A program made the translations under genes and the position numbers. 64,000 nt of DNA from Candidatus Yanofskybacteria bacterium (lineage in GTDB: Bacteria > Patescibacteriota > Minisyncoccia > 2-02-FULL-40-12 > IGHO2-01-FULL-4-A): positions 4,549-68,548 of the forward strand of contig JACPNJ010000005.1 of the NCBI GenBank assembly GCA_016185545.1, written 5' to 3'. Below are positions 1,181 through 54,040 of the stretch, one piece after another. The notes beneath the pieces were generated by a model, which was not told the DNA's origin, did no database searches, and worked only from the letters and a program-made list of their open reading frames with translations. Numbering within the stretch: the first letter of the stretch is position 1; every line of letters begins with the position of its first letter.

Positions 1181-2332
1181 AACTTTACTCGCTATACTGC
1201 GTGACAAAATGCCACCGCCTAAAACTTCTTGGCCACGGTAAAAGACGGCTGATTGGCCGGGAGTGAGAGCTTTGGCATGCTTTTTAAATTTAACCAGTTT
1301 TTTTGAAACAGTAGCCGGTATTGATTTGCTGCGATATCTGATTTTAATTTGGCAATTCAATGGTAACTTTGGTATTTTACTAACCCAACTTATTTTTTCT
1401 ATTTTTGATGTCGGGTTTTTTATATTTAATTTTGAAGGCGTATTAGTAACATAGATAATATTTTTTTGGATATTCTTACTTACGACAAAATACGGTCCTT
1501 TGCCGTCTTTGATGTCTAGTCCATGCCGCTGGCCTATGGTGTAGTAATAAGCGCCATCGTGGCGTCCGATAATTTTGTCCGTATCAATATGTATGATCTT
1601 CCCCAGTCCGGATTTAATATATTTTTTTAAAAATTTTTTCATGTCCAACTGTCCGATAAAACATACGCCCTGGCTGTCTTTTTTGTCGTGATTCGGTAAT
1701 CCGAACTTTTTAGCCAGTTTTCTGACCCCAGGTTTGGTATAATCCCCTATCGGAAAAATGCAATGTTTTAGCTGGTCTTGCGTAAGTGTCCACAAGAAAT
1801 AAGATTGGTCTTTATTCGAATCTTTGGCAATCAGTAACTGGTAACTGGTAACTGGTAACTGGTTTTTCGAACGCCTAATTACTAATTTAGGATTACTAAT
1901 TACGTTTCTTAATCGCACATAGTGACCAGTAGCAATACAATCCGCTCCTTCAACCAGCGCTTTTTTCAAAAATAAGCCAAATTTGATTTCTTTATTACAC
2001 ATAACATCGGGGTTGGGTGTAATTCCAGATCTATAAGAGTCAATCATATATCGTACTACCTCTTTTTCGTATTCTTTTGAAAAATCCCAGGTTTTGAAAG
2101 GAATGCCAAGCTTGGCGCATACTTTCATAGCATCCTGCCTGTCTTGCTGCCACAGACACGAACTGTTAACTGGCGGAGTCCAGGGTTTAAAAAAAACACC
2201 AGTCACTTTGTGACCTTGTTTTTTTAGTAATGCCGCAGCGACTGAAGAATCAACGCCCCCGCTCATTGCTACGAAGACTTTAGGTTTAAGAGTGGTATTT
2301 AATTGTTTGTGTTTAGTCCAGATTCTTGCCAT
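1154..2332 (-). CDS. mnmA: tRNA-specific 2-thiouridylase MnmA
   Basis: PP-loop VAMSGGVDSSVAA, central ATGHY, DSNKDQSYFLW. Carries an extra ~14 aa relative to E. coli MnmA that includes a heptamer tandem array. Confidence 0.9.
   Translation of the reverse strand: MARIWTKHKQLNTTLKPKVFVAMSGGVDSSVAAALLKKQGHKVTGVFFKPWTPPVNSSCLWQQDRQDAMKVCAKLGIPFKTWDFSKEYEKEVVRYMIDSYRSGITPNPDVMCNKEIKFGLFLKKALVEGADCIATGHYVRLRNVISNPKLVIRRSKNQLPVTSYQLLIAKDSNKDQSYFLWTLTQDQLKHCIFPIGDYTKPGVRKLAKKFGLPNHDKKDSQGVCFIGQLDMKKFLKKYIKSGLGKIIHIDTDKIIGRHDGAYYYTIGQRHGLDIKDGKGPYFVVSKNIQKNIIYVTNTPSKLNIKNPTSKIEKISWVSKIPKLPLNCQIKIRYRSKSIPATVSKKLVKFKKHAKALTPGQSAVFYRGQEVLGGGILSRSIASKVLRRGKSQY
1835..1862. repeat. Heptamer tandem array (taactgg)x4 inside the mnmA coding sequence
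   Basis: Four perfect head-to-tail copies; encodes ..QLPVTSYQLL.. in an insertion relative to other MnmA proteins. Confidence 0.9.
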
Positions 2333-2344
2333 ATTCTTTTCGTT

Positions 2345-2824
2345 TTAATTTAGCATCCAAATCGCATAGTTCAAGTACATCGCAAAACTGACCCAGAGAA
2401 TATATGGCAAAAGAAGCCAGGCAGCTGGTTTAGATATTTTTACAAAAGTGATAATCGTGGCGAGGATAGCGAGCCAGAGGAATATGATCTCAATAAACGC
2501 ACCGCCAGGACTGTGTAGTCCGAAAAAGATAATCGACCAAAGCGTATTCAAAACCAGCTGGCCGAGGAATATGCCGAGAGCGATTTTTACATCTCTGCGA
2601 TCCAGTCCTTTTTTCCAGACTAGGAACGCCGCGATGCCCATAAGCGCAAATAGTGTCGTCCAGACAGGACCAAACACCCACGCCGGAGGATTAAGAGCTG
2701 GCTTCACCAGTTCGGTATACCAGCTTGATTGAACCGCCGGCATCGTGAAAACTGCACCAATAATCCCCGCCGCTTCTGAAACGCCTATGGAGACTATTAA
2801 TTTGAAAAAGTTATTGATACTCAT
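2345..2824 (-). CDS. tspO: TspO/MBR family tryptophan-rich sensory protein
   Basis: Five TM helices; PPAWVFGPVWTTLFALMG signature. Confidence 0.85.
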   Translation of the reverse strand: MSINNFFKLIVSIGVSEAAGIIGAVFTMPAVQSSWYTELVKPALNPPAWVFGPVWTTLFALMGIAAFLVWKKGLDRRDVKIALGIFLGQLVLNTLWSIIFFGLHSPGGAFIEIIFLWLAILATIITFVKISKPAAWLLLPYILWVSFAMYLNYAIWMLN

Positions 2825-2962
2825 ATGTAATATTTTAACAAATTTTCTCGTCTATACCCATGACGACTTGAATTATCCCCAGATCATTGATTTCTCATCC
2901 CGAACCTGCTAACATGGAAATGTGGGTGATAAAGCCCTGTTTCTAAAGGTTTTGTACCAAAA

Positions 2963-3001
2963 GAGCGTGTCCTAGGTCTAGGGCCCGCTCTTTTGGTTTT
3001 T
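2963..3001 (+). terminator. Hairpin plus T-run (ccaaaagagcg..cgctcttttgg tttttt); possible end of a small + strand transcript
   Basis: Perfect 11-bp stem followed by a U-run on the + strand; no + strand CDS lies upstream. Confidence 0.4.
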
Positions 3002-17973: not shown

Positions 17974-19152
17974 TTAAACTACCCTGTGGAATTTCAAAAA
18001 TATCACTCTAGCCAGAATTGCAAGGGTGTAGAGCAAAAACGAAGCAACTAACGGCAGACGGTAAATGTGCTGTTCGGTGGTGTAGTTTTTGACTTCTACG
18101 ACTGCGGCGTGAAGGCGGTCAAGCCGCTGGCGTATTTGGTCCAGTGATGAACGATTGGTTGCGATAAAATATTCACCGCCGTATTGCTTTACTTGTTTTA
18201 ACAATTGTTCCGGCAGTTTTAGTTGCGGCGAATTTTCGCCGTGAATCTTTTTTTCTGATTCTTTATCGGGATCAATAAACACCAGATATGGAGTAATACC
18301 CCGCTTTTTCAGTTCCTTAAACTTCGTCTCAGGGTCGCGGTCGGACGCGCCGTCAGTCGCAATTATGACTGATCTTCTTTTAATGGATGGATTCTTTTTA
18401 GCTTCTTCGGTAATTTTGGGATCGCCTTTTTCGTCAAAAAGCTTGATAACTGTCCCGAGTCCTAGAAAAAGATCGGACTCGCCGCCAAACAGCTCCGGCA
18501 TAAAGTCGTTAACAATAAAAATCCCCTTGTACATTTCGATTGTCGGCGTAGCAGGATCAGCAATGACTAATGGGCCGTCATCTACATTAAAAAGAAAACC
18601 CTTAACATCTGTCGTAAAATCCGCAACACGGTATGGATTGGTTGCGTAAATTATAAAAGCGGCCCTGTCATTTTTATCCTTGCGTTCGGCAATAAGCTTC
18701 AAAATGAAATCTCGTATAATTTCGGCTCTGCTTATTTGCTGGTTTTTAAACTTAAAACCCATTGAAGCCGAAACGTCTTCAAGATAGATAATTTCCCGCG
18801 ATTGTGTGGATTTATTCTGATGGCTCGACAAGACATATGGGTCAGCAATTGCAATCAGAAGTAATCCTGATGCTAAAACAACAAACATTATCGGGATAAA
18901 TCCCAAAATCTTGTACCAGAATCCCGGCTTATCCCGCTGTTTAAAATAGTGACCGGAGTGTTCATAAAAACTCTTTTCGTGTTCCGGATGAAAATAACGC
19001 CACAAGATTTTTAGCAAAAAGGCCGCTCCCAGCAGTATCGCGGCCCAGATTGCAAAACCCGCCTGCTTAAATTGAACCGCCGACCAATCGGTATTAAAAA
19101 AATTGGCCAGATTAAATTCAATCAGCTCACGAAGTGTGCCTAGTAAGTTCAT
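17974..19152 (-). CDS. VWA-domain membrane protein (BatB-like)
   Basis: Two N-terminal TMs; IIYLEDVSASMGF MIDAS motif. Confidence 0.65.
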   Translation of the reverse strand: MNLLGTLRELIEFNLANFFNTDWSAVQFKQAGFAIWAAILLGAAFLLKILWRYFHPEHEKSFYEHSGHYFKQRDKPGFWYKILGFIPIMFVVLASGLLLIAIADPYVLSSHQNKSTQSREIIYLEDVSASMGFKFKNQQISRAEIIRDFILKLIAERKDKNDRAAFIIYATNPYRVADFTTDVKGFLFNVDDGPLVIADPATPTIEMYKGIFIVNDFMPELFGGESDLFLGLGTVIKLFDEKGDPKITEEAKKNPSIKRRSVIIATDGASDRDPETKFKELKKRGITPYLVFIDPDKESEKKIHGENSPQLKLPEQLLKQVKQYGGEYFIATNRSSLDQIRQRLDRLHAAVVEVKNYTTEQHIYRLPLVASFLLYTLAILARVIFLKFHRVV

Positions 19153-29429: not shown

Positions 29430-29458
29430 TTGACTCCAACCGCTAGTTTTGCTATAAT
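29430..29458 (+). promoter_or_regulatory. consensus sigma70 promoter (TTGACT-17-TATAAT) upstream of tRNA-Leu
   Basis: Exact consensus hexamers with 17-bp spacing. Confidence 0.55.
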
Positions 29459-29547
29459 GGAATTTCATAGTAGTGATGCATCTCTTATCGGGGACAGCGA
29501 CGTGTCTTACTGTCTAACTCTTGTGTTTTTATTACGCGCATACCCCT

Positions 29548-29631
29548 GCTCGGGTGGTGAAATTGGCAGACACGTTAGCTTCAGGAGCTAATGGGAGCAA
29601 TCCCGTGGGAGTTCAAATCTCCCCCCGAGCA
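29548..29631 (+). tRNA. tRNA-Leu (anticodon CAG), type II with long variable arm
   Basis: Acceptor GCTCGGG/CCCGAGC, anticodon arm TTAGC-ttCAGga-GCTAA, variable-arm hairpin GGGAgcaaTCCC, T-arm GGGAG-ttcaaat-CTCCC; CCA not encoded. Confidence 0.85.
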
Positions 29632-29980
29632 CAATTGAACGAAGTGAAATTGGGAGTGGGGAGCAACACGCCTGCGCGTGTTGCGTGGAGATGAGAACGC
29701 CGGAGCGATGTTTGACGAGCAATCGGTGAGTCAAACCGCGAGGAGGTGGCTAGACTAAATTAGCGGAAGCTAATTTAAGTCAAAGCCAAATCTCCCCCCG
29801 AGCACAATTGAACGAAGTGAAATTGGGAGTGGGGAGCAACACGCCTGCGCGTGTTGCGTGGAGATGAGAACGCCGGAGCGATGTTTGACGAGCAATCGGC
29901 GAGTCAAACCGCGAGGAGGTGGCTAGACTAAATTAGCGGAAGCTAATTTAAGTCAAAGCCAAATCTCCCCCCGAGCACAA
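29615..29980. repeat. Tandem 173-bp direct repeats (2 full copies plus a 20-bp partial) beginning inside the tRNA-Leu 3' end
   Basis: Units at 29615-29787 and 29788-29960 differ by 1 nt; the partial copy at 29961-29980 abuts the ATG of the downstream ORF. Confidence 0.85.
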
Positions 29981-37906: not shown

Positions 37907-38494
37907 TTGAAAATATCCGGGGCTATTATGAACTTTGATAACTTATCTAGTGAGGAATTAAAAAAATTACTCACCATGGGTCGAACATCCGGTAAAAGAA
38001 TGGCTTTTGAATTTTGGCTCAAGCACATAGAACTAATCGCTCCCAGGGAAACTGGCATAGGCAAAGACCAGCAGCATTACACGGCAAGATTCTTAACACG
38101 GTTTTCTCTGGTTTCAACCACACATTCAATGTTCCACTTTCCTACTTTCATGAGTTTGGCGCAAATTTATGACGAATTCGTGCAGGATATTGAAAACCAG
38201 TATTCACCGGAACCCATGGAAATAGCCGGTTACCAAACTTTACTGCTTGGCGGGTTTTATCTGAAAGCCGCAAGTAAACATTACAACATGGAAGACATAC
38301 GAAAAATGGGCGAATTATTTTTCACCCGCGGAGCAATCGGCAAAAGAAAATCCGTAATCAAAAAAATGGCTCATAATTTTAGCCGATGGCAAAATACGCT
38401 TTGTTATCTTGAATGGTATTTAAGAAATGAAAGATTAGTCATTCAAAAAGCAGAAAAACCCGACGAGCCCCTCATCAAAATCATCCCCCGCTAG
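37907..38494 (+). CDS. hypothetical protein adjacent to the DGR
   Basis: ORF only; its stop overlaps the RT stop by 4 bp (convergent). Confidence 0.35.
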   Translation: MKISGAIMNFDNLSSEELKKLLTMGRTSGKRMAFEFWLKHIELIAPRETGIGKDQQHYTARFLTRFSLVSTTHSMFHFPTFMSLAQIYDEFVQDIENQYSPEPMEIAGYQTLLLGGFYLKAASKHYNMEDIRKMGELFFTRGAIGKRKSVIKKMAHNFSRWQNTLCYLEWYLRNERLVIQKAEKPDEPLIKIIPR

Positions 38495-39501
38495 GGGGAT
38501 TTATATTTTAAAATTTCGGCTTTTAGTTCGTTGGAATTTCCGTGGCTCAAAAGGCCTAGATACGATTCTATTGCCGCAATGTCAGGATTTGATTTAAGTT
38601 TTTTTAACATTCTTCTCTTTGTTGTTGTTCTCAATATTCTGTGGTCTGGAAAATTCACCCACCCCAGAAAATCAACACCCGAATTAATGGTTTTTATGAA
38701 AATTTTACCGGGATGTAATTCTAGTTTAAGATTTTCGGATAAAAAAATCTGAATAGGGTTGATTATACCTTTAAGCCAGGCTTTGTAGGGTGAAATTATT
38801 ACAAAGTCGTCTGAATATCTGACATAGTATTTAGCCTTGAGTTTGTGCTTAACAAACTGGTCAAACTTGTTCATATAGATATTTACGAAAAGCTGTGATG
38901 TTAAGTTACCAAGCGGCAAGCCAACGCCTATTTTCTTGGACGAGAAACTTTTAATGATTTGGTTAAGAAGCCACAAAATATCCTTGTCCGGTATGTTCTC
39001 AACCAAAATTTTTTTCAGTACTTCATGGTCAATATTTTTAAAGAATTTCTTGATATCACACTTTAATATCCAACAAGTGCGAGTATTGTTTTTATTGGCT
39101 TTGTGGGCAAAACTCCTGAAACGGTTTATTGCTTTATGAGTTCCTTTGCCGACTCTGCACGAGAATGAATCGGGAATAAACACTCGGTCAAGGAACGGAC
39201 AAAGTTGCCTACAGACGGCATGGTGAATCAAACGGTCCCTTACTGGCGATTTGTGTATTTGCCTTGGTTTGGGGTCATTGATACGAAAAGATTGATATTT
39301 GCCGTGCTTATAAGTTTTGCCCATCAATTCATGGTGAAGTTCGATAATATTGTCCATCAAATTCATACTGAATTTTTGGACATCTTTCTTTTTGCGCTTT
39401 CCTTTCAAAAATTCTTGCCAAGAATGAAGCAGATTGTCTATACTTACAACATCGTAAAAACAAACACAAAAACCACCTTTATGCCCCCCCCCCAACAACA
39501 A
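38491..39501 (-). CDS. diversity-generating retroelement reverse transcriptase
   Basis: N-terminal IDNLLHSWQEFLKGKRKKKDV, SFSCRVGKGTHKAINR, DGR-specific GLPLGNLTSQLFVNIYMN, YVRYSDDFVI (YxDD). The start is ambiguous: TTG in the given frame, or an ATG if the G-tract is 9 long. Confidence 0.85.
   Translation of the reverse strand: MLLGGGHKGGFCVCFYDVVSIDNLLHSWQEFLKGKRKKKDVQKFSMNLMDNIIELHHELMGKTYKHGKYQSFRINDPKPRQIHKSPVRDRLIHHAVCRQLCPFLDRVFIPDSFSCRVGKGTHKAINRFRSFAHKANKNNTRTCWILKCDIKKFFKNIDHEVLKKILVENIPDKDILWLLNQIIKSFSSKKIGVGLPLGNLTSQLFVNIYMNKFDQFVKHKLKAKYYVRYSDDFVIISPYKAWLKGIINPIQIFLSENLKLELHPGKIFIKTINSGVDFLGWVNFPDHRILRTTTKRRMLKKLKSNPDIAAIESYLGLLSHGNSNELKAEILKYKSP
39484..39493. repeat. C10 (+ strand) / G10 homopolymer at the overlapping 5' ends of RT and avd
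   Basis: Read directly from the sequence. A 9-nt tract would give avd an ATG start at 39481 and RT an ATG start at 39517. Confidence 0.9.
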
Positions 39502-39502
39502 T

Positions 39503-39850
39503 TTGTCGATTATTCATGGTTTTATTGAATTATACAAAGTCTGGCAAAAAATATTTCCCCACTTTCCGACCACCTCCAGACACACGCTCGGATACAGAAT
39601 AGATAATCTTCTCGTGGAAATAGCTGAATTATTGTTTCTGGCGCAATTTGCAACCGGCAATCTTAAGTTATCTCTGGTTGAAAAAACATCACAGAAACTA
39701 GATACGATAAAATTCCTGTTAAGGTTGGCTTGGGAAGTTGAATCTATGGAAGAAAAGAAATATATAATTTTGTCTGAATATCTGCAAAACATTGGGAAAC
39801 AACTTGGCGGTTGGATAAAATATATAAGAAAAGAAAACTCTCCGCGTTGA
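39503..39850 (+). CDS. avd: DGR accessory variability determinant (Avd), four-helix-bundle type
   Basis: C-terminal GKQLGGWIKYIRKEN resembles bAvd ..GRILGSWIARVNRK; IKFLLRLAWEVE resembles bAvd LRFWLRFLA; 115 aa. It lies on the strand opposite to RT, TR and the target gene. Confidence 0.7.
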   Translation: MSIIHGFIELYKVWQKIFPHFPTTSRHTLGYRIDNLLVEIAELLFLAQFATGNLKLSLVEKTSQKLDTIKFLLRLAWEVESMEEKKYIILSEYLQNIGKQLGGWIKYIRKENSPR

Positions 39851-39866
39851 GCAGAGAGAAACAGAG

Positions 39867-40007
39867 ATAGTTTCGAGGCAGAACGAACACGAAGCGATAG
39901 TCAGAATCAAAGACGTTGTCGGGATTGCCGTAATACGCGTTCAACCAAGGTTCGCCATCGTTACGATTCACATCGAACACGTTCAGGTTGCCGTCGGAGT
40001 CAGTAAT
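39867..40007 (-). repeat. DGR template repeat (TR), template strand minus
   Basis: Aligns to 40261-40401 at an offset of 394 bp. All 16-17 mismatches are T on the + strand, which is A on the TR coding strand; there are no other mismatches in 133 bp. Confidence 0.85.
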
Positions 40008-40197
40008 GTATGGCATACCGTCTATACCACCACCCCTTGAGTTTTCTCAGGGTTGAATCTAATTTGATATCTAAATCATACCCTAGTACACCACACCAAG
40101 TATGTCTGTTTTTTTTTGAGGCCGCTCAAAGCCTTCTAATTTTGACCGTGAGCATGTCGCCGTATCTATAATATAACTTATTTCCGAAATAAAAAAG

Positions 40198-40230
40198 GGT
40201 CAGTCAATGATAAAAATATTGACCGACCCA
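40198..40230 (-). terminator. hairpin plus U-run downstream of the VR/target gene
   Basis: Minus strand: gggtcggtcaat..attgactgaccc followed by ttttttatttcgg. Confidence 0.5.
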
Positions 40231-40260
40231 GAAACCAAGCAACAAGAATCTGAGAGATCC

Positions 40261-40401
40261 TTACTTGCGAGGCAGAACGAACACGAAGCGATAGACAGAA
40301 ACAAAGACGCTGTCGGGACAGCCGCAAAACGCGCCCAACCAAGGTTCGCCATCGAAACGATTCACAACGAACACGCGCAGGCTGCCGTCGGAGTCAGTAA
40401 G
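40261..40401 (-). repeat. DGR variable repeat (VR) at the 3' end of the target gene
   Basis: See the TR entry. The TR-encoded peptide has Asn (AAY) where the VR peptide has S/R/F/G/C/K, and TR Asp/Tyr codons also vary. Confidence 0.85.
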
Positions 40402-40914
40402 TGGCTCCATGGCAACTACGAGACACTCTCCATCGGGCTGATCCTTGTACTGATCGCGCAGTGCCGGACCAACTTCGTTTGGACAGAGTTGACCGCCGAC
40501 CTCAACTATCCTGGCACAGATGTCATCATACCGGGTACTCTTCTTGAAACCGAGTTCAGCAACCGACATGACACACAAATCCACTTCAATCTCTGCCTGC
40601 GAGATGGAGATTTTGTGGAGAATCTGCTGTGCCCAATCACCGATTCGGGTAGTACCTCCACGCTTCAGGGCACTCGCGTAAGCCTTCGGGGTCTTGTGAA
40701 GGCCCAGTCTGATGGTCCCCCAAACCTTCAGCACTGGCAAAAGCCCAAGAAACTTCTGGAAGACATCTCTGACAGGCAAAGTATTTGACTTGATTGCCCG
40801 AGCCAGGTCTGATAGATACCCGCTGTGCAGTGTGTTCATCTCCTCACCGGAGAGCTTCTGCTGATCCAGCAGATTAAGTGTCTGCTGGGCATGACCAAAA
40901 GTTGCATTGCTCAT
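40261..40914 (-). CDS. DGR target protein (217 aa) with C-terminal variable region
   Basis: AGGAGG RBS; GC content higher than its surroundings; C-terminus ..DGEPWLGAFCGCPDSVFVSVYRFVFVLPRK is VR-encoded; no signal peptide. Confidence 0.8.
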   Translation of the reverse strand: MSNATFGHAQQTLNLLDQQKLSGEEMNTLHSGYLSDLARAIKSNTLPVRDVFQKFLGLLPVLKVWGTIRLGLHKTPKAYASALKRGGTTRIGDWAQQILHKISISQAEIEVDLCVMSVAELGFKKSTRYDDICARIVEVGGQLCPNEVGPALRDQYKDQPDGECLVVAMEPLTDSDGSLRVFVVNRFDGEPWLGAFCGCPDSVFVSVYRFVFVLPRK

Positions 40915-41118: not shown

Positions 41119-41973
41119 TTAAATTTTTCCCACCGATCCAAAGAGCTCCAGATATTTTTTAATCATTCTCTTCATCTCTTCATAAGAGGACTTGAGGTAT
41201 TTGTAGGGCGTGGTTTCTTTGGGTTCTTTTTCAAGTTCTTCATGCAATGTATCATGATAAGCCACGCGGAGCTCGGTGTTAATGTGGACATTGGCGATAC
41301 CGTTTTGTATCGCCATTTTTATTTCTTCAGCCGGTAAGCCCGAAGCACCATGCAGCACAAGCGGCACTACAGGTATGGCTTGAACTATTTTTTTTAGATG
41401 CCCAATGTCTAAATGCTCTTCCTGATTAGTAACGATTCCGTGGATATTGCCGAAAGCTACGGCAAGCCGGTCAACACCAGTGCGCGTGACAAAATCGCGC
41501 GCCTGCTCCGGTTGAGTATAATCCGCCGGACTTATTTCTATTTTCTCCTGAACTTCCGAACTGCCACGCAAATATCCCAATTCTCCCTCAACCTCTAAGT
41601 TAAAGGATTGGGCGTAATCAACAACTTTTTTGGTTAGAACTATGTTTTCTTCGTATGAATGTTTTGATGCATCTATAAGTACTGAATCATAACCGGCATT
41701 AACGACGGCTTTGGTTGTTTCCCAACTTTTATGATGGTCGGCATTCAGGAAAACCGCGTGGCCATTTTTCTGATATGATTTAACCAAAGCCACCGCCTGT
41801 TCCCTGCCGACAAAATCCGCTTCGCTTTCCGAGGTCCCGACCATAATCGGCGATTTCAGCTCCATCGCCGCCTCAACAAACGCCTTGAGCTGGTCTGCCG
41901 TAGAAAAATTAAAATGCCCCAGCGCCCATTTGTCCGCCACCGCTTCATTAAAATACTGTTTTAAGGTTTTCAT
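41119..41973 (-). CDS. fba: class II fructose/tagatose-bisphosphate aldolase
   Basis: VLHGASG, NADHHKS, GELGYL metal-ligand pattern. Confidence 0.85.
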   Translation of the reverse strand: MKTLKQYFNEAVADKWALGHFNFSTADQLKAFVEAAMELKSPIMVGTSESEADFVGREQAVALVKSYQKNGHAVFLNADHHKSWETTKAVVNAGYDSVLIDASKHSYEENIVLTKKVVDYAQSFNLEVEGELGYLRGSSEVQEKIEISPADYTQPEQARDFVTRTGVDRLAVAFGNIHGIVTNQEEHLDIGHLKKIVQAIPVVPLVLHGASGLPAEEIKMAIQNGIANVHINTELRVAYHDTLHEELEKEPKETTPYKYLKSSYEEMKRMIKKYLELFGSVGKI

Positions 41974-41983
41974 AAATTCAGAT

Positions 41984-42186
41984 TGACATCTGATTTTCTT
42001 ACAACATCATGTCTTCCTGTAAATCTTCCTCGTTGAGCTATGGATTCCTTAAAATATGCGGTTATCCATTCCCCCTCCGCCTACTGGCTACGGGGCCCGC
42101 ATATTTCTTAAGGAATCATATACGCTCAACTCGTTGATTTACTAGTCGGCAGATGAATGACGAAAATCAGATATCAATCTTATTTT
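41984..42186. mobile_element. MITE-like ~200-bp element (left copy) with 19-bp terminal inverted repeats
   Basis: Left end agattgacatctgattttc versus RC of right end agattgatatctgattttc (18/19); internal long palindrome; inverted homologue at 44515-44700. Confidence 0.5.
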
Positions 42187-42370
42187 ATTAGCCGTGAACT
42201 ACAAGCGAGTCATAATACATTTTGGGACTTTTTGGGGCAGGCCCCAGCATGGTTTTGTCATAGGCCTTGCGCCTTGACAAATGGGGCTGCTCCAACAAGA
42301 TGAGCCGAACTCGCTGGGCTCGGCGAAGTTTCCAAAAGGTATTATGACGAGCTGTTAAACGAATGGCGAT

Positions 42371-43630
42371 TTACAATTTGATTAATCCATCTATTATATT
42401 CTCTTCTACCAACTCCTCAATTTTATCACGCCCCAGATATTCAATAAAAATCTTATTCCAAAGCGCCTCTTGCTGGTGATAAAGATATTTAATTTCGCCT
42501 TTTTTGACTAAAGACATGACCAGATCTATCAAGTCAAAGCTTACCAATTCATCGTTTGTCGGACCGCTTATGCCATCATGGAAAAAATCGCCGACAAAAT
42601 CCAATCCTTGCCAAAAACCGAACGTCCTGCCCTCCACGCCAAGCAATGTGGCAATTTTACCCAAGTCGCCTTCGGCCTTATACCAGTGTTCCGCCTCCGG
42701 ATTAAAATGCGGTTCCATCAGCCTAAAATCATCCGGGTCGTCCTTGGCCAAATATCTTTGCACGATTCGCAAACTGTTTTCATCCGGCAATGGCGCTTCG
42801 TTTACATCCCCACGCAAAAGCGATTTTAATTTAACAGTAAAGTTCTTTTCGTTGGAAAATTTCCTGAATAACTTAGAATAAAACGGCACCTCGTTGAGAT
42901 AGTGAAGAATTAATGTAAATAATCGTAGCGTTTCGCCCGGCGTGTCAATCTTAAGCGGAATTATAAAAATCACGCCGAATTCTTTCAAATGGCTGACATT
43001 GTGATATTTTTTTTCTAAAAATTTCTCGGCGACATCAAGCCATTGCGGTTCAAGTATTTTCAACACAACCCCTCGCTCCTCAAAGTCGTCAGCCGTTAAA
43101 TCATCGTAGGCCTTATCAAAAAATTCATGCATCCATTTTTGGTCTTGTGCGAACCGAAGCGAACTGAAGACCGATTCAAAGCCCTGTTTTTCAACTAATT
43201 CGGAAGCAGTTTGATATTCAAAATGTTTCAGAAGATTTTGCGGCGGAAATTCTTCAAGCATTTGAACGGCTTTATCTTTTTTTATAAAAAAACCCTCTGC
43301 TGGCTGATTGAGTTTAAGCGCTATATCGCAAAGCTGTCCGCAAACTGATGACATTTTAGAAAGATCGGGTTTGCCCAAAAAATTATAAAGATGCTCATCC
43401 ATATGCTCAATGCGCTTAGCAAGAATGTTATAAACATCCTTGGCATGGCATATATCAACTGACAGTCCCAGTTCTTCCAGCGTTCTCCCGATTAAAATCC
43501 TATTTTCCTCGGCTACGCGTTCAATAACGCCGGATTTGCCGGTCAGTTTATCCATTTTTTTCTCCAAACCCAAAAGCACCTCAGGTTTGGTGCGCAAGAT
43601 ACGGGCAAGTTTTGTATGAGCTTCAGACAT
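42371..43630 (-). CDS. hypothetical protein (419 aa)
   Basis: ORF only; lies between the inverted MITE-like copies. Confidence 0.4.
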   Translation of the reverse strand: MSEAHTKLARILRTKPEVLLGLEKKMDKLTGKSGVIERVAEENRILIGRTLEELGLSVDICHAKDVYNILAKRIEHMDEHLYNFLGKPDLSKMSSVCGQLCDIALKLNQPAEGFFIKKDKAVQMLEEFPPQNLLKHFEYQTASELVEKQGFESVFSSLRFAQDQKWMHEFFDKAYDDLTADDFEERGVVLKILEPQWLDVAEKFLEKKYHNVSHLKEFGVIFIIPLKIDTPGETLRLFTLILHYLNEVPFYSKLFRKFSNEKNFTVKLKSLLRGDVNEAPLPDENSLRIVQRYLAKDDPDDFRLMEPHFNPEAEHWYKAEGDLGKIATLLGVEGRTFGFWQGLDFVGDFFHDGISGPTNDELVSFDLIDLVMSLVKKGEIKYLYHQQEALWNKIFIEYLGRDKIEELVEENIIDGLIKL

Positions 43631-43671
43631 AAATTTGGTTGACTAAATTTTGGGTTTTGCTAGGGTTACGA

Positions 43672-43880
43672 TGCGGTGGGAGTGGCTCAGCGCAAGACCT
43701 AATCTCACCAGTTAGAGTCTTCGGGGTGCAAATCCCCGCACTTCCACCGCCTTAAGAGATATCAACAAGTGAAACTTTGACATTAAATTACTATTTTGCT
43801 AGACTTTTAGTAACTGGTGAGATTAGAATTTTGTACTGAGTTAAGGTTCGCCAACTCCCGCCTCGGCGGGTTTTTGGTTT
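43672..43880 (+). ncRNA. candidate structured sRNA ending in a rho-independent terminator
   Basis: -35 TTGACT at 43639; closed 5' domain gcggtgg..ccaccgc; long-range pairing of cctaatctcaccagttag with taactggtgagattag; terminator cccgcctcggcggg followed by tttttggtttt. Confidence 0.35.
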
Positions 43881-43931
43881 TGTTATAAATATAGCAAAAT
43901 AAGGGGTTTTTAACAATTTTGCAATAAACAC

Positions 43932-43961
43932 TTGACAATGCCTAGGCGATTTTGCTATACT
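43932..43961 (+). promoter_or_regulatory. near-consensus sigma70 promoter (TTGACA-18-TATACT) for the GC-rich ncRNA
   Basis: Hexamers read directly from the sequence. Confidence 0.55.
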
Positions 43962-43967
43962 TAAGAC

Positions 43968-44502
43968 AGGCTGGAGTGTGGGTGAAAGGTGCTGTTACCT
44001 TGACACACCTGACGCTTTCGGAGGCTGGCTGCGTTTCGCTCATGTTTCCTAAGACAGGCCGGAATTGTTGGCTAATCCGACCCCACACTCTCAACCCAGC
44101 TCTTTATACCAGAATCACGAACCCCGCTCCACACTCCGCCTTTATTGCGGAACTCAAGTAAGTCATTTGGAGCTAGTCCTGACAAGTTCAGGGCAAAAAG
44201 GTTCGCATTAAGTTTCGATTTTGCTGGTTGTGTGCCTTGAGGTTCCCTCACCCCATGGAATCGTGAACTGGAAAATTCACGAAGAGACACACACGATTGG
44301 CCGCCTAACCAGCATTTTGGCGGCTTACGGCACTCTGCCGTAGTTTACCCCACGTTGGCCAAGCTAGCGACAGGGGAATACCGCCCAGTCCTGCCATGAG
44401 GGTGGCTAGTGGTTGTTCCAGCAACCATGACAAGGACTCGAACCTACTAGGGGCAAAGTAGGCGTGCCGGATGCTATCACGATAGGCCGGCTTTTTTATT
44501 TT
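43968..44502 (+). ncRNA. candidate ~530-nt GC-rich structured ncRNA of unknown class
   Basis: GC well above flanking DNA; no credible ORF; internal complementary segments (ggagtgtgg / ccacactcc); ends in a hairpin plus ttttttattttt. Confidence 0.45.
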
Positions 44503-44514
44503 TAATTGGACATA

Positions 44515-44700
44515 GCAAGCCCCTTAGTTTTTCGTCATTCGTCTGCCGACTAACAAATTGCCGAGTTGAGCGTATATTGTTCCGCTGAAATATGCGGGTC
44601 GCGAAGCAGGAATGGATAACCGCATATTTCTAGGAACAATAGCTCAACGAATGCAATTTGTAGGAAGGCATGACGTTGTAAGAAAAATTAAGGGGCGAGC
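44515..44700. mobile_element. MITE-like element (right copy, inverted and diverged)
   Basis: Its reverse complement aligns along the whole length of 41984-42186. Confidence 0.45.
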
Positions 44701-53375: not shown

Positions 53376-53714
53376 TTAGTAATCCCTGCCACCACCACCG
53401 TAACCGCCTCGGCCACCGCTGTAGCCGCCACGGCCACCAAACCCGCCGGTGCGCGGAGCGCGCGGCGCCATCGGTCTGGCTTCATTTACGACAATCTGTC
53501 TGCCGTCCAAATCTTGGCCATTGAACATTTCAACAGCTTTGGCGGCTTCTTCATCCGTGGACATTTCCACGAAACCGAAGCCCTTGGAACGACCGGACAT
53601 CTTGTCGGTGATAACCATCGCTGATTCTACCGTTCCGGCTTGGGAAAAGTGCTGTTTCAGCTGGTCATCAGTCGTGTTGTAGGACAAACTGCCTACATAT
53701 AACTTCTTAGCCAT
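53376..53714 (-). CDS. RRM-type RNA-binding protein with glycine-rich tail
   Basis: MAKKLYVGSLSYNTTDDQL (RNP2), KGFGFVEM (RNP1), RGG/GGY tail. The six-frame ORF starts at 53753, but the conserved start is the 53714 ATG. Confidence 0.85.
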   Translation of the reverse strand: MAKKLYVGSLSYNTTDDQLKQHFSQAGTVESAMVITDKMSGRSKGFGFVEMSTDEEAAKAVEMFNGQDLDGRQIVVNEARPMAPRAPRTGGFGGRGGYSGGRGGYGGGGRDY

Positions 53715-53739
53715 TTCACCGCGAAATATGTGCGCTTTC

Positions 53740-53905
53740 GTTGTGAAGCCCAAAATTGTTTAGGGCTTTGCGCAACTCAAGCCACGAGGGTTTGCCCAAT
53801 TTCTTCGTTGGGTGTTCCGGTACTCCCTCAACGTAGTTTTACTACGCCTCGGTTCGTTCCTCATACCCGCCTCGAACTTGGCCAAACGCACAAATTTCGT
53901 AAATT
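53740..53905 (-). promoter_or_regulatory. structured leader motif, copy 2 (5' leader of the RRM protein gene)
   Basis: Reverse complement matches 32727-32895. Confidence 0.45.
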
Positions 53906-54040
53906 TTTGTAGGAAGACCTATTCTCGAGATCCGCTTAGCTTATGGAGAACACTAGGTTTCCTACGGCTAAATGGCTAACACTGAGAACACACACCTACA
54001 ATAGATTAAGTGTAACAAAATGCTATTTTGAAGTCAAATT

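What the first reader, a model, noticed from the sequence alone, without database searches (positions are those of the whole stretch)
43932..44502. About 530-nt GC-rich non-coding transcription unit with near-consensus promoter and intrinsic terminator; class unknown
A TTGACA-18-TATACT promoter lies at 43932-43961, and a hairpin plus ttttttattttt lies at 44466-44502. There is no credible ORF. GC content is well above the surroundings, as is typical of structured RNAs in AT-rich genomes. The unit has internal complementary blocks (ggagtgtgg near the 5' end pairs with ccacactcc twice). I could not match it to RNase P, tmRNA, SRP or 6S consensus elements.
Basis: partly seen in the sequence, partly recalled or inferred. 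Interest (0 to 1): 0.6.

Follow-up and report, generated by a model that had tools for sequence, protein, structure and literature searches.

The report
Novel modular structured RNA in Yanofskybacteria
This is a real, separately transcribed non-coding RNA gene of about 536 nt in a groundwater CPR bacterium (Candidatus Yanofskybacteria); it matches no known RNA family, is built from conserved, swappable folded modules behind a 5' domain that is a tRNA look-alike in some relatives, and was found only in a handful of close relatives.

Summary
Window 43932-44503 (+) has a near-consensus extended -10 promoter, no credible ORF, 52% GC against 41% for the window, and a hairpin plus U-run terminator.

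Homologous units lie at the same place, divergent from a conserved 419-aa gene and between it and pfkB, in about 10 related Yanofskybacteria. More distant Parcubacteria lack them, as do several relatives just as close.

The RNA is a mosaic:
- a 5' stem-enclosed domain that covaries in all members and is a tRNA look-alike in some (Rfam tRNA 50.7 bits in L097);
- a GCUCUUUU linker;
- a three-way-junction module, M2 (nine genomes; in eight, 91% paired, 10 pairs with double changes);
- a 3' module, M3, shared with only one other genome, with compensatory stems and two conserved, mutually complementary loops.

Rfam finds nothing at E<=10. RNase P, tmRNA, SRP, 6S, introns and GOLLD/ROOL are rejected.

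Function is unknown. My best inference is a stable tRNA-linked structured RNA, possibly processed at the tRNA-like domain. It is a new, narrowly distributed RNA family of moderate to high interest.

The parts
43932..43961 (+). Sigma-70-type promoter: TTGACA, 18-nt spacer, extended -10 TGCTATACT. The spacer contains the palindrome GCCTAGGC.
   Evidence: 11 of 12, TG present. The same -35, -10 and position occur in L005, L006, L010, L011, L012, L015, L017, L097, L098 and L100. The spacer is nearly identical in L015 and L100.
43968..44100 (+). 5' domain (P1). A long basal stem (43969-43982 with 44082-44100) encloses two arms. It is the counterpart of the tRNA-like module of relatives. The transcription start at about 43968 is inferred from the -10 position.
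   Evidence: Fold. The basal stem covaries in 10 genomes. The homologous domain is Rfam tRNA at 50.7 bits in L097, 24.1 bits in L006, and ARAGORN 'tRNA-???' in L015. The window copy itself gives no tRNA hit.
44101..44117 (+). Conserved pyrimidine-rich linker, (G)CUCUUU..AGAAUCA. The family consensus is GCUCUUUU(A)ACAAGAUCAC.
   Evidence: Sequence comparison.
44111..44213 (+). Module M2, a three-way junction:
- helix A: 44118-44123 with 44200-44205;
- helix B: 44126-44130 with 44169-44173;
- hairpin D: 44136-44150;
- invariant unpaired motif CUCAAGUAAGUCAUU: 44151-44168;
- hairpin C: 44177-44193.
   Evidence: Alignments A1 and A4, RNAalifold and pair counts: 91% of cells paired, 10 pairs changed on both sides, covariation score 0.385 against 0.177 in shuffles (0 of 500 reach it). 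Single-sequence fold z = -3.55. Coordinates.
44129..44140 (+). Second copy of the 3' strand of the 5' stem (CCACACUCCGCC). It could pair with the 5' end (43969-43981) instead.
   Evidence: -29.8 kcal/mol, 0 of 300 shuffles as good in the window; 32/300 in L005 and 22/300 in L017; not significant in the other five; same-genome similarity is only slightly above cross-genome similarity (p about 0.04).
44214..44462 (+). Module M3, a multi-helix 3' domain:
- long-range helices 44234-44239 with 44431-44435, and 44245-44250 with 44397-44402;
- hairpin 44261-44282 (loop CUGGAA, 44268-44273);
- hairpin 44409-44428 (loop UUCCAG, 44416-44421);
- hairpins 44299-44324 and 44443-44462.
   Evidence: Homologous only to the 3' half of the L098 RNA. 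The two-sequence alignment shows 10 pairs changed on both sides. The two mutually complementary loops are unchanged while their stems covary. Coordinates.
44466..44503 (+). Intrinsic terminator: interrupted GC-rich hairpin (44466-44491) plus UUUUUUAUUUUU (44492-44503).
   Evidence: Every homologue ends in a GC-rich hairpin followed by U4-7 A/G U4-8.

Best explanation
Window 43968-44503 (+) is the gene for a stable, structured non-coding RNA. It has its own promoter and terminator and belongs to a previously undescribed family restricted to one lineage of Candidatus Yanofskybacteria.

The family is modular. Common to all members are the promoter, a 5' stem-enclosed domain and a CU-rich linker. 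In some members the 5' domain is an almost canonical tRNA cloverleaf with an abnormal anticodon loop; here it has degenerated into a three-way junction. These parts are followed by different combinations of folded modules. This genome carries M2 (a three-way junction with an invariant unpaired CAAGUAAG motif) and M3 (a large domain with two complementary loops).

Shown: the gene signals, conservation at a syntenic locus, compensatory changes in P1, M2 and M3, the absence of coding potential, and the lack of any known-family match.

Inferred (untested):
- the tRNA-like 5' domain serves as a handle for the tRNA-processing enzymes RNase P and RNase Z, or as a stabilising cap;
- the structured body, with or without that domain, then acts as a protein- or ligand-binding scaffold;
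- the invariant single-stranded nucleotides of M2 are the binding or tertiary-contact site;
- the M3 loops form an intra- or intermolecular kissing contact.
For: Gene signals.

Organism and synteny: the neighbouring protein is 100% identical to a Ca. Yanofskybacteria MAG protein. The order pfkB - [RNA, opposite strand] - 419-aa gene - fba is seen.

Homologues with the same promoter and terminator: L005, L006, L010, L011, L012, L015, L017, L097, L098, L100.

Structure and covariation: M2; the P1 stem; M3.

tRNA-like 5' modules. The L015 and L097 modules have different D-arm types (UCGUCCAGCGGUUAGGA against UAGCUCAGUGGCUAGAGC; read). That would fit selection for tRNA shape rather than simple decay of one ancestral tRNA, though it was not tested.

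Not coding.

No known family.

Mosaic relationships.
Against: - There are no expression or end-mapping data.
- The family is narrow and patchy. It was absent at this locus in several relatives just as close (L008/L019 at 73% protein identity, L018 at 72%, L099 at 74%, L101 at 75%) and in almost all of the more distant Parcubacteria loci.
- A model of M2 finds no other copy in 561 kb. An exact-pattern scan of JGI metagenomes found only two real members, both already known.
- The covariation rests on 8-9 related sequences, so relatedness inflates it. M3 rests on two sequences.
- The window's own 5' domain is not detectably tRNA-like, so tRNA-enzyme processing is least certain for this very copy.
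- Rapid gain and loss of modules could also fit weak selection.
Confidence: 0.6

Rival explanations
1. It is a highly diverged copy of a universal housekeeping RNA (RNase P RNA, tmRNA, SRP RNA or 6S RNA). Such RNAs are known to escape standard models in CPR bacteria.
For: CPR RNase P RNAs can fall below Rfam thresholds and carry large insertions or lack helices (PMC8172020). The unit has a strong stable-RNA-type promoter and contains GGGUGAAAGG, which I recall as resembling a conserved stretch of bacterial RNase P RNA.
Against: - No hit to any of these families at E<=10 when only 544 nt are searched, and ARAGORN is negative.
- No P4 sequences (GAAAGUCC / ACAGAAnCCGGCU), no tmRNA T-arm plus acceptor at the ends, and no SRP domain IV motif in any of 12 members.
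- GGGUGAAAGG sits in a non-conserved arm of the window copy only.
- The RNA is missing at this locus from similarly close relatives.
- Its modules differ between close relatives: L015 and L098 lack M2, and only L098 shares M3. An essential ribozyme or RNP core would not vary like this.
Confidence: 0.03
2. It is a relic: a decaying tRNA gene, with its promoter, plus scars of small elements that inserted at the tRNA 3' end. It is transcribed but has no function of its own.
For: - The 5' domain is tRNA-like in some genomes and degenerate in others.
- The 3' strand of the 5' stem is duplicated about 47 nt downstream in the window and in L005, like an attachment-site duplication.
- In this same genome, tRNA-Leu is followed by two tandem 173-nt units, each ending in a copy of the tRNA 3' end.
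- Distribution is patchy and modules turn over.
Against: - Compensatory changes maintain four helices of M2, the P1 stem and the M3 stems.
- Unpaired positions in M2 are invariant while flanking stems change.
- The promoter and terminator are retained in all members.
- GC content stays far above background in an AT-rich, streamlined genome.
Confidence: 0.12
3. It is a base-pairing regulatory RNA or RNA sponge. Its conserved single-stranded stretches (the CU-rich linker and the CAAGUAAG motif) would pair with mRNAs or other small RNAs, much as tRNA-linked 3' external transcribed spacers act as sponges.
For: It is a stand-alone unit with conserved unpaired motifs. The CU-rich linker would become a 5' end if the tRNA-like domain is cut off (inference). 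The best predicted target in the window overlaps the start codon of ORF 17974-19152 at -17.6 kcal/mol.
Against: That best target is no better than chance: 17 of 200 shuffled motifs do as well. At 350-580 nt, with elaborate conserved tertiary-type features, it is unlike typical seed-type small RNAs. No conserved complementary site was found in the neighbouring genes available.
Confidence: 0.15
4. It belongs to a mobile or selfish element, for example a non-autonomous integrative element or a satellite, bounded by the long inverted hairpin repeats at 41972-42188 and 44529-44686.
For: Two copies of a hairpin element of about 170-210 nt flank the 419-aa gene plus the RNA units in inverted orientation. 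Modules look shuffled between genomes. A DGR lies 4 kb away.
Against: - The RNA sits at the same chromosomal site in about 10 genomes, most of which lack the right-hand repeat.
- The enclosed 419-aa gene is a core Parcubacteria gene found in thousands of genomes in the same pfkB-fba context.
- There is no integrase or transposase.
- There are no matches in the phage or plasmid collections or in viral contigs.
Confidence: 0.05

Closest known systems
GOLLD and ROOL large ornate RNAs (Rfam RF01998, RF03087)
   Same: From my own knowledge of these families: several hundred nucleotides, GC-rich relative to the host, many helices, a variable part next to a conserved part, frequent physical association with tRNAs, function unknown. 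Loop-loop contacts drive their assembly into RNA-only complexes (PMC12286853, abstract seen). The CUGGAA/UUCCAG loops of M3 could act in a similar way.
   Different: No cmscan match even at E<=10. Chromosomal, syntenic and not in a prophage. No phage or viral matches. Far narrower distribution. Oligomerisation is untested.
tRNA-linked non-coding RNA precursors (MALAT1-mascRNA, gammaherpesvirus tRNA-miRNA TMERs, plant tRNA-snoRNA, E. coli 3'ETS-leuZ)
   Same: A tRNA or tRNA-like fold is joined in one transcript to another functional RNA. In those systems RNase P or RNase Z cuts at the tRNA-like fold and defines the ends of the partner RNA (established knowledge, from memory).
   Different: Those are eukaryotic or viral, or involve true tRNA operons. 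Here the tRNA-like module cannot decode (6-nt or 22-nt anticodon loops) and is degenerate in the window copy. Cleavage has not been shown.
tmRNA (SsrA)
   Same: A bacterial stable RNA that combines a tRNA-like domain with additional folded domains. It is of similar size and has its own promoter and terminator.
   Different: In tmRNA the tRNA-like domain is formed by the 5' and 3' ends. Here it is a contiguous 5' domain and the 3' end is a terminator. There is no G3:U70 pair (seen where the acceptor stem can be read, in L097, sequence), no conserved tag reading frame (indels are not multiples of three), and ARAGORN and Rfam are negative.
Bacterial Y RNA-like YrlA
   Same: A modular non-coding RNA with a tRNA-mimicking module attached to a protein-binding module (from memory).
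   Different: In YrlA the tRNA mimic is internal and permuted, and the 5'/3' ends form the Ro-binding stem. There is no Rfam match here, and no Ro (TROVE) gene was noted among the neighbouring genes examined (the rest of the window was not annotated).
Diverged RNase P RNA of CPR bacteria (PMC8172020)
   Same: A GC-rich stable RNA of CPR bacteria that standard annotation can miss.
   Different: No P4 or other universally conserved regions, no RF00010 hit at E<=10, and not universal even among close relatives.

Membership tests
RNase P RNA, bacterial type A/B (RF00010/RF00011) | Covariance-model match | tested here: not met
   No hit at gathering thresholds or at E<=10 on 1.2 kb and 544 nt. No hit in 11 homologous loci.
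RNase P RNA, bacterial type A/B (RF00010/RF00011) | P4 helix from the conserved GGAAAGUCC and ACAGAAnCCGGCUUA stretches | tested here: not met
   Motif scan of 12 members: none.
RNase P RNA, bacterial type A/B (RF00010/RF00011) | Essential, so present in all related genomes | tested here: not met
   Absent at the syntenic site in L008/L019, L018, L099, L101 and nearly all of about 70 other Parcubacteria loci. Whole genomes could not be scanned.
tmRNA | tRNA-like domain formed by paired 5' and 3' ends with a T-arm, detected by ARAGORN or Rfam | tested here: not met
   ARAGORN finds none in the window or in 9 loci. Rfam finds none. The 3' end is a terminator hairpin.
tmRNA | Conserved tag-peptide reading frame ending in a stop codon | tested here: not met
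   A short frame ends at the UAA of CAAGUAAG in the window, L005 and L097, but indels that are not multiples of three break it in L006, L010 and others (alignment).
SRP RNA / 6S RNA | Covariance-model match; SRP domain IV motifs | tested here: not met
Group I or group II intron (including tRNA introns of Patescibacteria, PMC13011429) | Intron covariance-model match, and exons that reconstitute a tRNA across the insertion | tested here: not met
   No Intron_gpI or gpII hit. Where tRNA-like, the 5' domain is closed within 72-88 nt and its anticodon loop carries at most 15 extra nt. No T-arm or acceptor lies at the 3' end.
GOLLD / ROOL / OLE / HEARO / raiA large RNAs | Covariance-model match | tested here: not met
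tRNA (for the 5' domain only) | Cloverleaf scoring above the Rfam tRNA gathering score, with a 7-nt anticodon loop | tested here: inconclusive
   L097 scores 50.7 bits (gathering score 29) but has a 22-nt anticodon loop. L006 scores 24.1 bits. L015 is ARAGORN 'tRNA-???' with a 6-nt loop. The window copy gives no hit. The module is tRNA-derived or tRNA-like, not a decoding tRNA.
tRNA-linked ncRNA precursor (works-like class, not a sequence family) | Cleavage by RNase P or RNase Z at the tRNA-like fold, releasing the partner RNA | not testable with these tools
   Needs end mapping or in vitro cleavage.

The most novel reading that the evidence does not exclude
The locus encodes a new class of 'cassette' RNA. 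A fixed promoter, a tRNA-like 5' handle and a linker drive lineage-specific combinations of independently folding RNA modules that are exchanged between related CPR genomes. The large M3-type body may assemble through its conserved complementary loops (CUGGAA/UUCCAG) into an RNA-only multimer, as GOLLD and ROOL do. Alternatively, the tRNA-like handles may have been captured repeatedly from different tRNA genes because tRNA shape is required for maturation or for recruiting a tRNA-binding partner.
Probability: 0.15. Interest if true: 0.8.

Novelty: new variant of a known kind. Interest (0 to 1): 0.6.

Why it matters
I found no published description of lineage-specific non-coding RNAs of CPR/Patescibacteria, which have tiny genomes with very little spare DNA (literature searches). 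A 350-580-nt, GC-rich, multi-domain RNA kept behind one of the strongest promoters in the window is therefore unlikely to be idle.

If confirmed it would add a new large structured RNA family. It would also be a bacterial example of a tRNA-like module fused to other functional RNA modules, and a natural case of RNA module shuffling among close relatives. Finally, it offers small, well-defined test objects for structure and ligand or protein-partner studies: the 100-nt M2 junction with its invariant loop, and the M3 kissing-loop pair.

Tried and rejected
- **Rfam.** Searched at gathering thresholds on the whole window, at E<=10 on 1.2 kb and on 544 nt, and on 11 homologous loci. Only tRNA hits to the 5' modules of L097 and L006; nothing else credible.
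- **ARAGORN** for tRNA and tmRNA. Only an aberrant tRNA-like call in L015.
- **Motif scan** for RNase P P4, the tmRNA T-arm and SRP domain IV. Negative.
- **nhmmer and covariance-model search of M2** over about 80 loci plus the window. Only the sequences used to build the model were found.
- **Exact-pattern scans.** JGI metagenomes gave two real hits, both already known, and two chance hits. Viral contigs gave none.
- **blastn** against the phage and plasmid collections. Nothing.
- **Coding potential.** The antisense 72-aa ORF, used as a protein query to fish for further copies, matched only itself. Pfam on five small ORFs found nothing.
- **Target prediction** for the invariant M2 motif. The best site is no better than shuffles.
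- **Alternative 5'-end/M2 helix as a family-wide switch.** Significant only in the window. I keep it as a feature of this copy, not of the family.
- **Extra small unit next to the RNA as SRP RNA,** tested on the L011 copy only (L020 and L097 carry similar units). No support even at very lax thresholds.
- **CsrB-like sponge idea.** A hand count gives about 10 GGA motifs in 536 nt, roughly the number expected from base composition. No tool run was made.
- **A role for the neighbouring 419-aa protein as an RNA partner.** It is far more widespread than the RNA. Its model resembles zincin-type metallohydrolases only weakly.
- **Literature searches** for CPR structured RNAs. No description of this RNA.

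Full report
**Observation**

- A TTGACA-18-TATACT promoter with an upstream TG lies at 43932-43961. It is the best promoter-like site in the surrounding 2.5 kb, at 11 of 12.
- The unit ends in an interrupted GC-rich hairpin (44466-44491) followed by UUUUUUAUUUUU (44492-44503).
- The longest ORFs are 69 aa and 72 aa. They have no Pfam match. The 72-aa one has no relative among 5.8 billion proteins.
- GC is 52.2% against 41.1% for the window, the 99.5th percentile.
- GGAGUGUGG near the 5' end is complementary to CCACACUC at 44083 and to CCACACUCC at 44129.
- Single-sequence folding energy is only mildly unusual and equal on both strands. It is not the evidence that matters.

**Known families**

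cmscan of all 4227 Rfam 15 families finds only two tRNAs in the 64-kb window, far from this unit. At E<=10 on 1.2 kb, and on the 544-nt unit alone, only chance-level hits appear. ARAGORN finds no tRNA or tmRNA here.

CPR RNase P RNAs are known to be diverged (PMC8172020), so I also looked for the P4 sequences, the tmRNA T-arm and SRP domain IV motifs in this RNA and 11 relatives. None was found.

**Organism and locus**

The divergent neighbour (42371-43630, minus strand, 419 aa) is 100% identical to a protein of a Candidatus Yanofskybacteria MAG. It has more than 2,600 relatives in Parcubacteria.

The local order is rpe - pfkB - [gap] - 419-aa gene - fba. The gap is 63-116 nt in several relatives (L008/L019, L101), and pfkB abuts or overlaps the 419-aa gene call in others (L018, L099). 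It is 730-1135 nt in the window and in a set of close relatives.

In those relatives the gap carries, on the strand opposite to the 419-aa gene:
- the same promoter, with its -35 box about 50 nt from the start codon where no extra unit is inserted;
- a GC-rich body of 340-580 nt;
- the same style of terminator.

The relatives are L005, L006, L010, L011, L012, L015, L017, L097, L098 and L100. L020 and L034 carry a promoter and terminator unit at the same place, but I could not align its body.

Promoter and terminator orientation fix the strand. G:U against A:C counts in the helices favour the plus strand only modestly.

**Architecture**

Pairwise comparison shows a mosaic.

- **P1.** All members begin with a stem-enclosed 5' domain. 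Its basal helix has a different sequence in every genome and stays complementary in all ten examined.
  - In L097 this domain is a tRNA by Rfam (50.7 bits, gathering score 29), with canonical D and T arms but a 22-nt anticodon loop.
  - In L006 it scores 24.1 bits.
  - In L015 ARAGORN calls a tRNA with a 6-nt anticodon loop.
  - In the window it is a 133-nt three-way junction with no detectable tRNA signal.
  - The L015 and L097 modules have different D-arm types (sequences). That might mean repeated capture, or selection for tRNA shape. I did not test this.
- **Linker.** P1 is followed by a conserved CU-rich linker (GCUCUUUU..AAGAUCAC).
- **M2.** Nine genomes, including the window (44111-44213), then carry module M2. 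It is a three-way junction with a nearly invariant closing helix (CGAACC/GGUUCG), a second helix, two hairpins and an invariant unpaired CAAGUAAG-containing stretch.
  - On the eight-sequence alignment, 91% of cells are paired and 10 of 23 pairs show changes on both sides.
  - The covariation score is 0.385 against 0.177 in shuffles (0 of 500 reach it).
  - Pairing collapses to 27-49% when partners are slid by 1-3 columns.
- **M3.** The window's 3' part (44214-44462) is shared only with L098, which lacks M2. Between these two sequences, 10 pairs changed on both sides. Two hairpin loops, CUGGAA and UUCCAG, stayed unchanged and complementary to each other while their stems covaried. This makes them a candidate kissing interaction.
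- **Other combinations.** L100 combines the 5' leader of L015, M2, and the 3' domain of L006.

**Distribution**

- nhmmer and a covariance model of M2 find no further copy in the window or in about 80 loci around the 419-aa gene from named Parcubacteria genomes.
- An exact-pattern scan of 241 million JGI metagenome records returned only two real hits, both already known.
- Viral contigs, phage records and plasmids gave nothing.

The family is therefore confined to one Yanofskybacteria lineage (neighbour protein identity of at least about 71%). It is patchy even there.

**The duplicated block**

In the window the 5' strand of P1 can pair either with the proximal closing strand or, over 12 bp with one bulge, with 44129-44140 inside M2. 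The second pairing would disrupt helix B and hairpin D. It beats all 300 shuffles here, is marginal in L005 and L017, and is absent in five others. Same-genome similarity of the two 3' blocks is only slightly above cross-genome similarity.

It may be a lineage-specific conformational switch, or the scar of a duplication of the tRNA-like 3' end. The second reading gains some weight from the tRNA-Leu locus of the same genome, where two tandem 173-nt units each end in a copy of the tRNA 3' end.

**Interpretation**

Shown:
- a conserved transcription unit;
- no coding potential;
- several helices maintained by compensatory change;
- invariant unpaired nucleotides;
- a tRNA-derived or tRNA-like 5' module in part of the family;
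- no relation to any curated RNA family.

Inferred:
- the RNA is stable and abundant, given its promoter quality, terminator and GC content;
- the tRNA-like domain acts as a handle for RNase P or RNase Z, or as a protective cap, as in other tRNA-linked non-coding RNAs;
- the body works as a folded scaffold for a protein, a ligand or self-association.

I put about 0.8 on 'genuine new structured RNA family', about 0.3 on the processing mechanism, and 0.6 on the explanation overall.

Rivals:
- a diverged housekeeping RNA (0.03), rejected on models, motifs, non-universality and module variability;
- a decaying tRNA gene with insertion scars (0.12), argued against by covariation and invariant loops;
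- a base-pairing regulator or sponge (0.15), for which target prediction is at chance level;
- a mobile-element RNA (0.05), argued against by the fixed syntenic site, the core gene enclosed by the flanking repeats, and the lack of mobile-element matches.

**Surroundings**

Between the 419-aa gene and this RNA, the window has two further small units with similar promoters.
- Unit 1 (about 43675-43750) folds as a tRNA-like cloverleaf with a 10-bp anticodon arm (z = -4.75).
- The start of unit 2 (43811-43826) is perfectly complementary over 16 nt to that arm.
- Neither unit occurs in the relatives, though L011, L020 and L097 have other small promoter-terminator units at the same spot.
- The L011 unit is not SRP RNA by Rfam.

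**Verdict**

It is a new, narrowly distributed, modular structured RNA with a tRNA-derived 5' module. Its function is unknown. Interest is moderate to high (0.6), mainly because lineage-specific RNAs of CPR bacteria appear undescribed in the literature I could search, and because of the unusual module mosaicism and tRNA linkage.

Noticed in passing
window 38491-40914: A diversity-generating retroelement. It has a reverse transcriptase (38491-39501, minus strand, Pfam RVT_1), a template repeat (39868-40006) and a variable repeat (40262-40400) at the 3' end of the target ORF 40261-40914 (minus strand). Of the 17 differences, 16 are at T on the plus strand, which is A on the coding strand. This is the classic adenine-mutagenesis signature.
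   Followed up: partly
window 41972-42188 and 44529-44686: Two inverted copies (76-85% identical) of a long, near-perfect hairpin element (fold z = -9 and -11). They flank the 419-aa gene plus the RNA units. The left copy is conserved in L005, and a related piece follows the RNA in L017/L094. They are MITE-like, or structured UTR elements.
   Followed up: partly
window 29430-29980: tRNA-Leu (29548-29632) sits behind a promoter of the same style and a leader of about 90 nt. It is followed by 2.1 tandem copies of a 173-nt unit (99% identical). Each unit ends in a copy of the tRNA 3' end (CAAATCTCCCCCCGAGCA) and carries pieces resembling the tRNA-Leu D arm and anticodon stem. This could be integration-site duplication or tandem tRNA-like pseudo-copies.
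   Followed up: partly
window 43639-43885: Two small promoter-led units lie upstream of the finding. Unit 1 (about 43675-43750) is tRNA-like, with a 10-bp anticodon arm and the loop CUCACCA (z = -4.75). Unit 2 (43806-43880) has its own terminator, and 43811-43826 near its start is perfectly complementary over 16 nt to that arm (43699-43714). They have no counterpart in the related genomes compared directly.
   Followed up: partly
[not shown]
   Followed up: partly
window 53715-54037 (minus strand): A promoter of the same style (54037 to 54009) is followed by a GC-rich leader of about 290 nt, ahead of a glycine-rich RRM-type RNA-binding protein gene (ATG at 53714, stop at about 53376). This may be a structured 5' UTR.
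   Followed up: no
L011 about 2810-3000, L020 about 2290-2500, L097 about 2290-2420 (minus strand of each locus): Extra small promoter-terminator units of about 110-150 nt lie between the 419-aa gene and the large RNA in some relatives. Those of L020 and L097 share CCCCCUCCU...GGAGGGG-U5. The L011 unit gave no SRP or other Rfam match.
   Followed up: partly
window 43938-43951: The promoter spacer contains a perfect 8-bp palindrome, GCCTAGGC. The spacer is almost identical in L015 and L100 and similar in L006 and L020, so it is more conserved than much of the RNA body. It may be an operator site.
   Followed up: no
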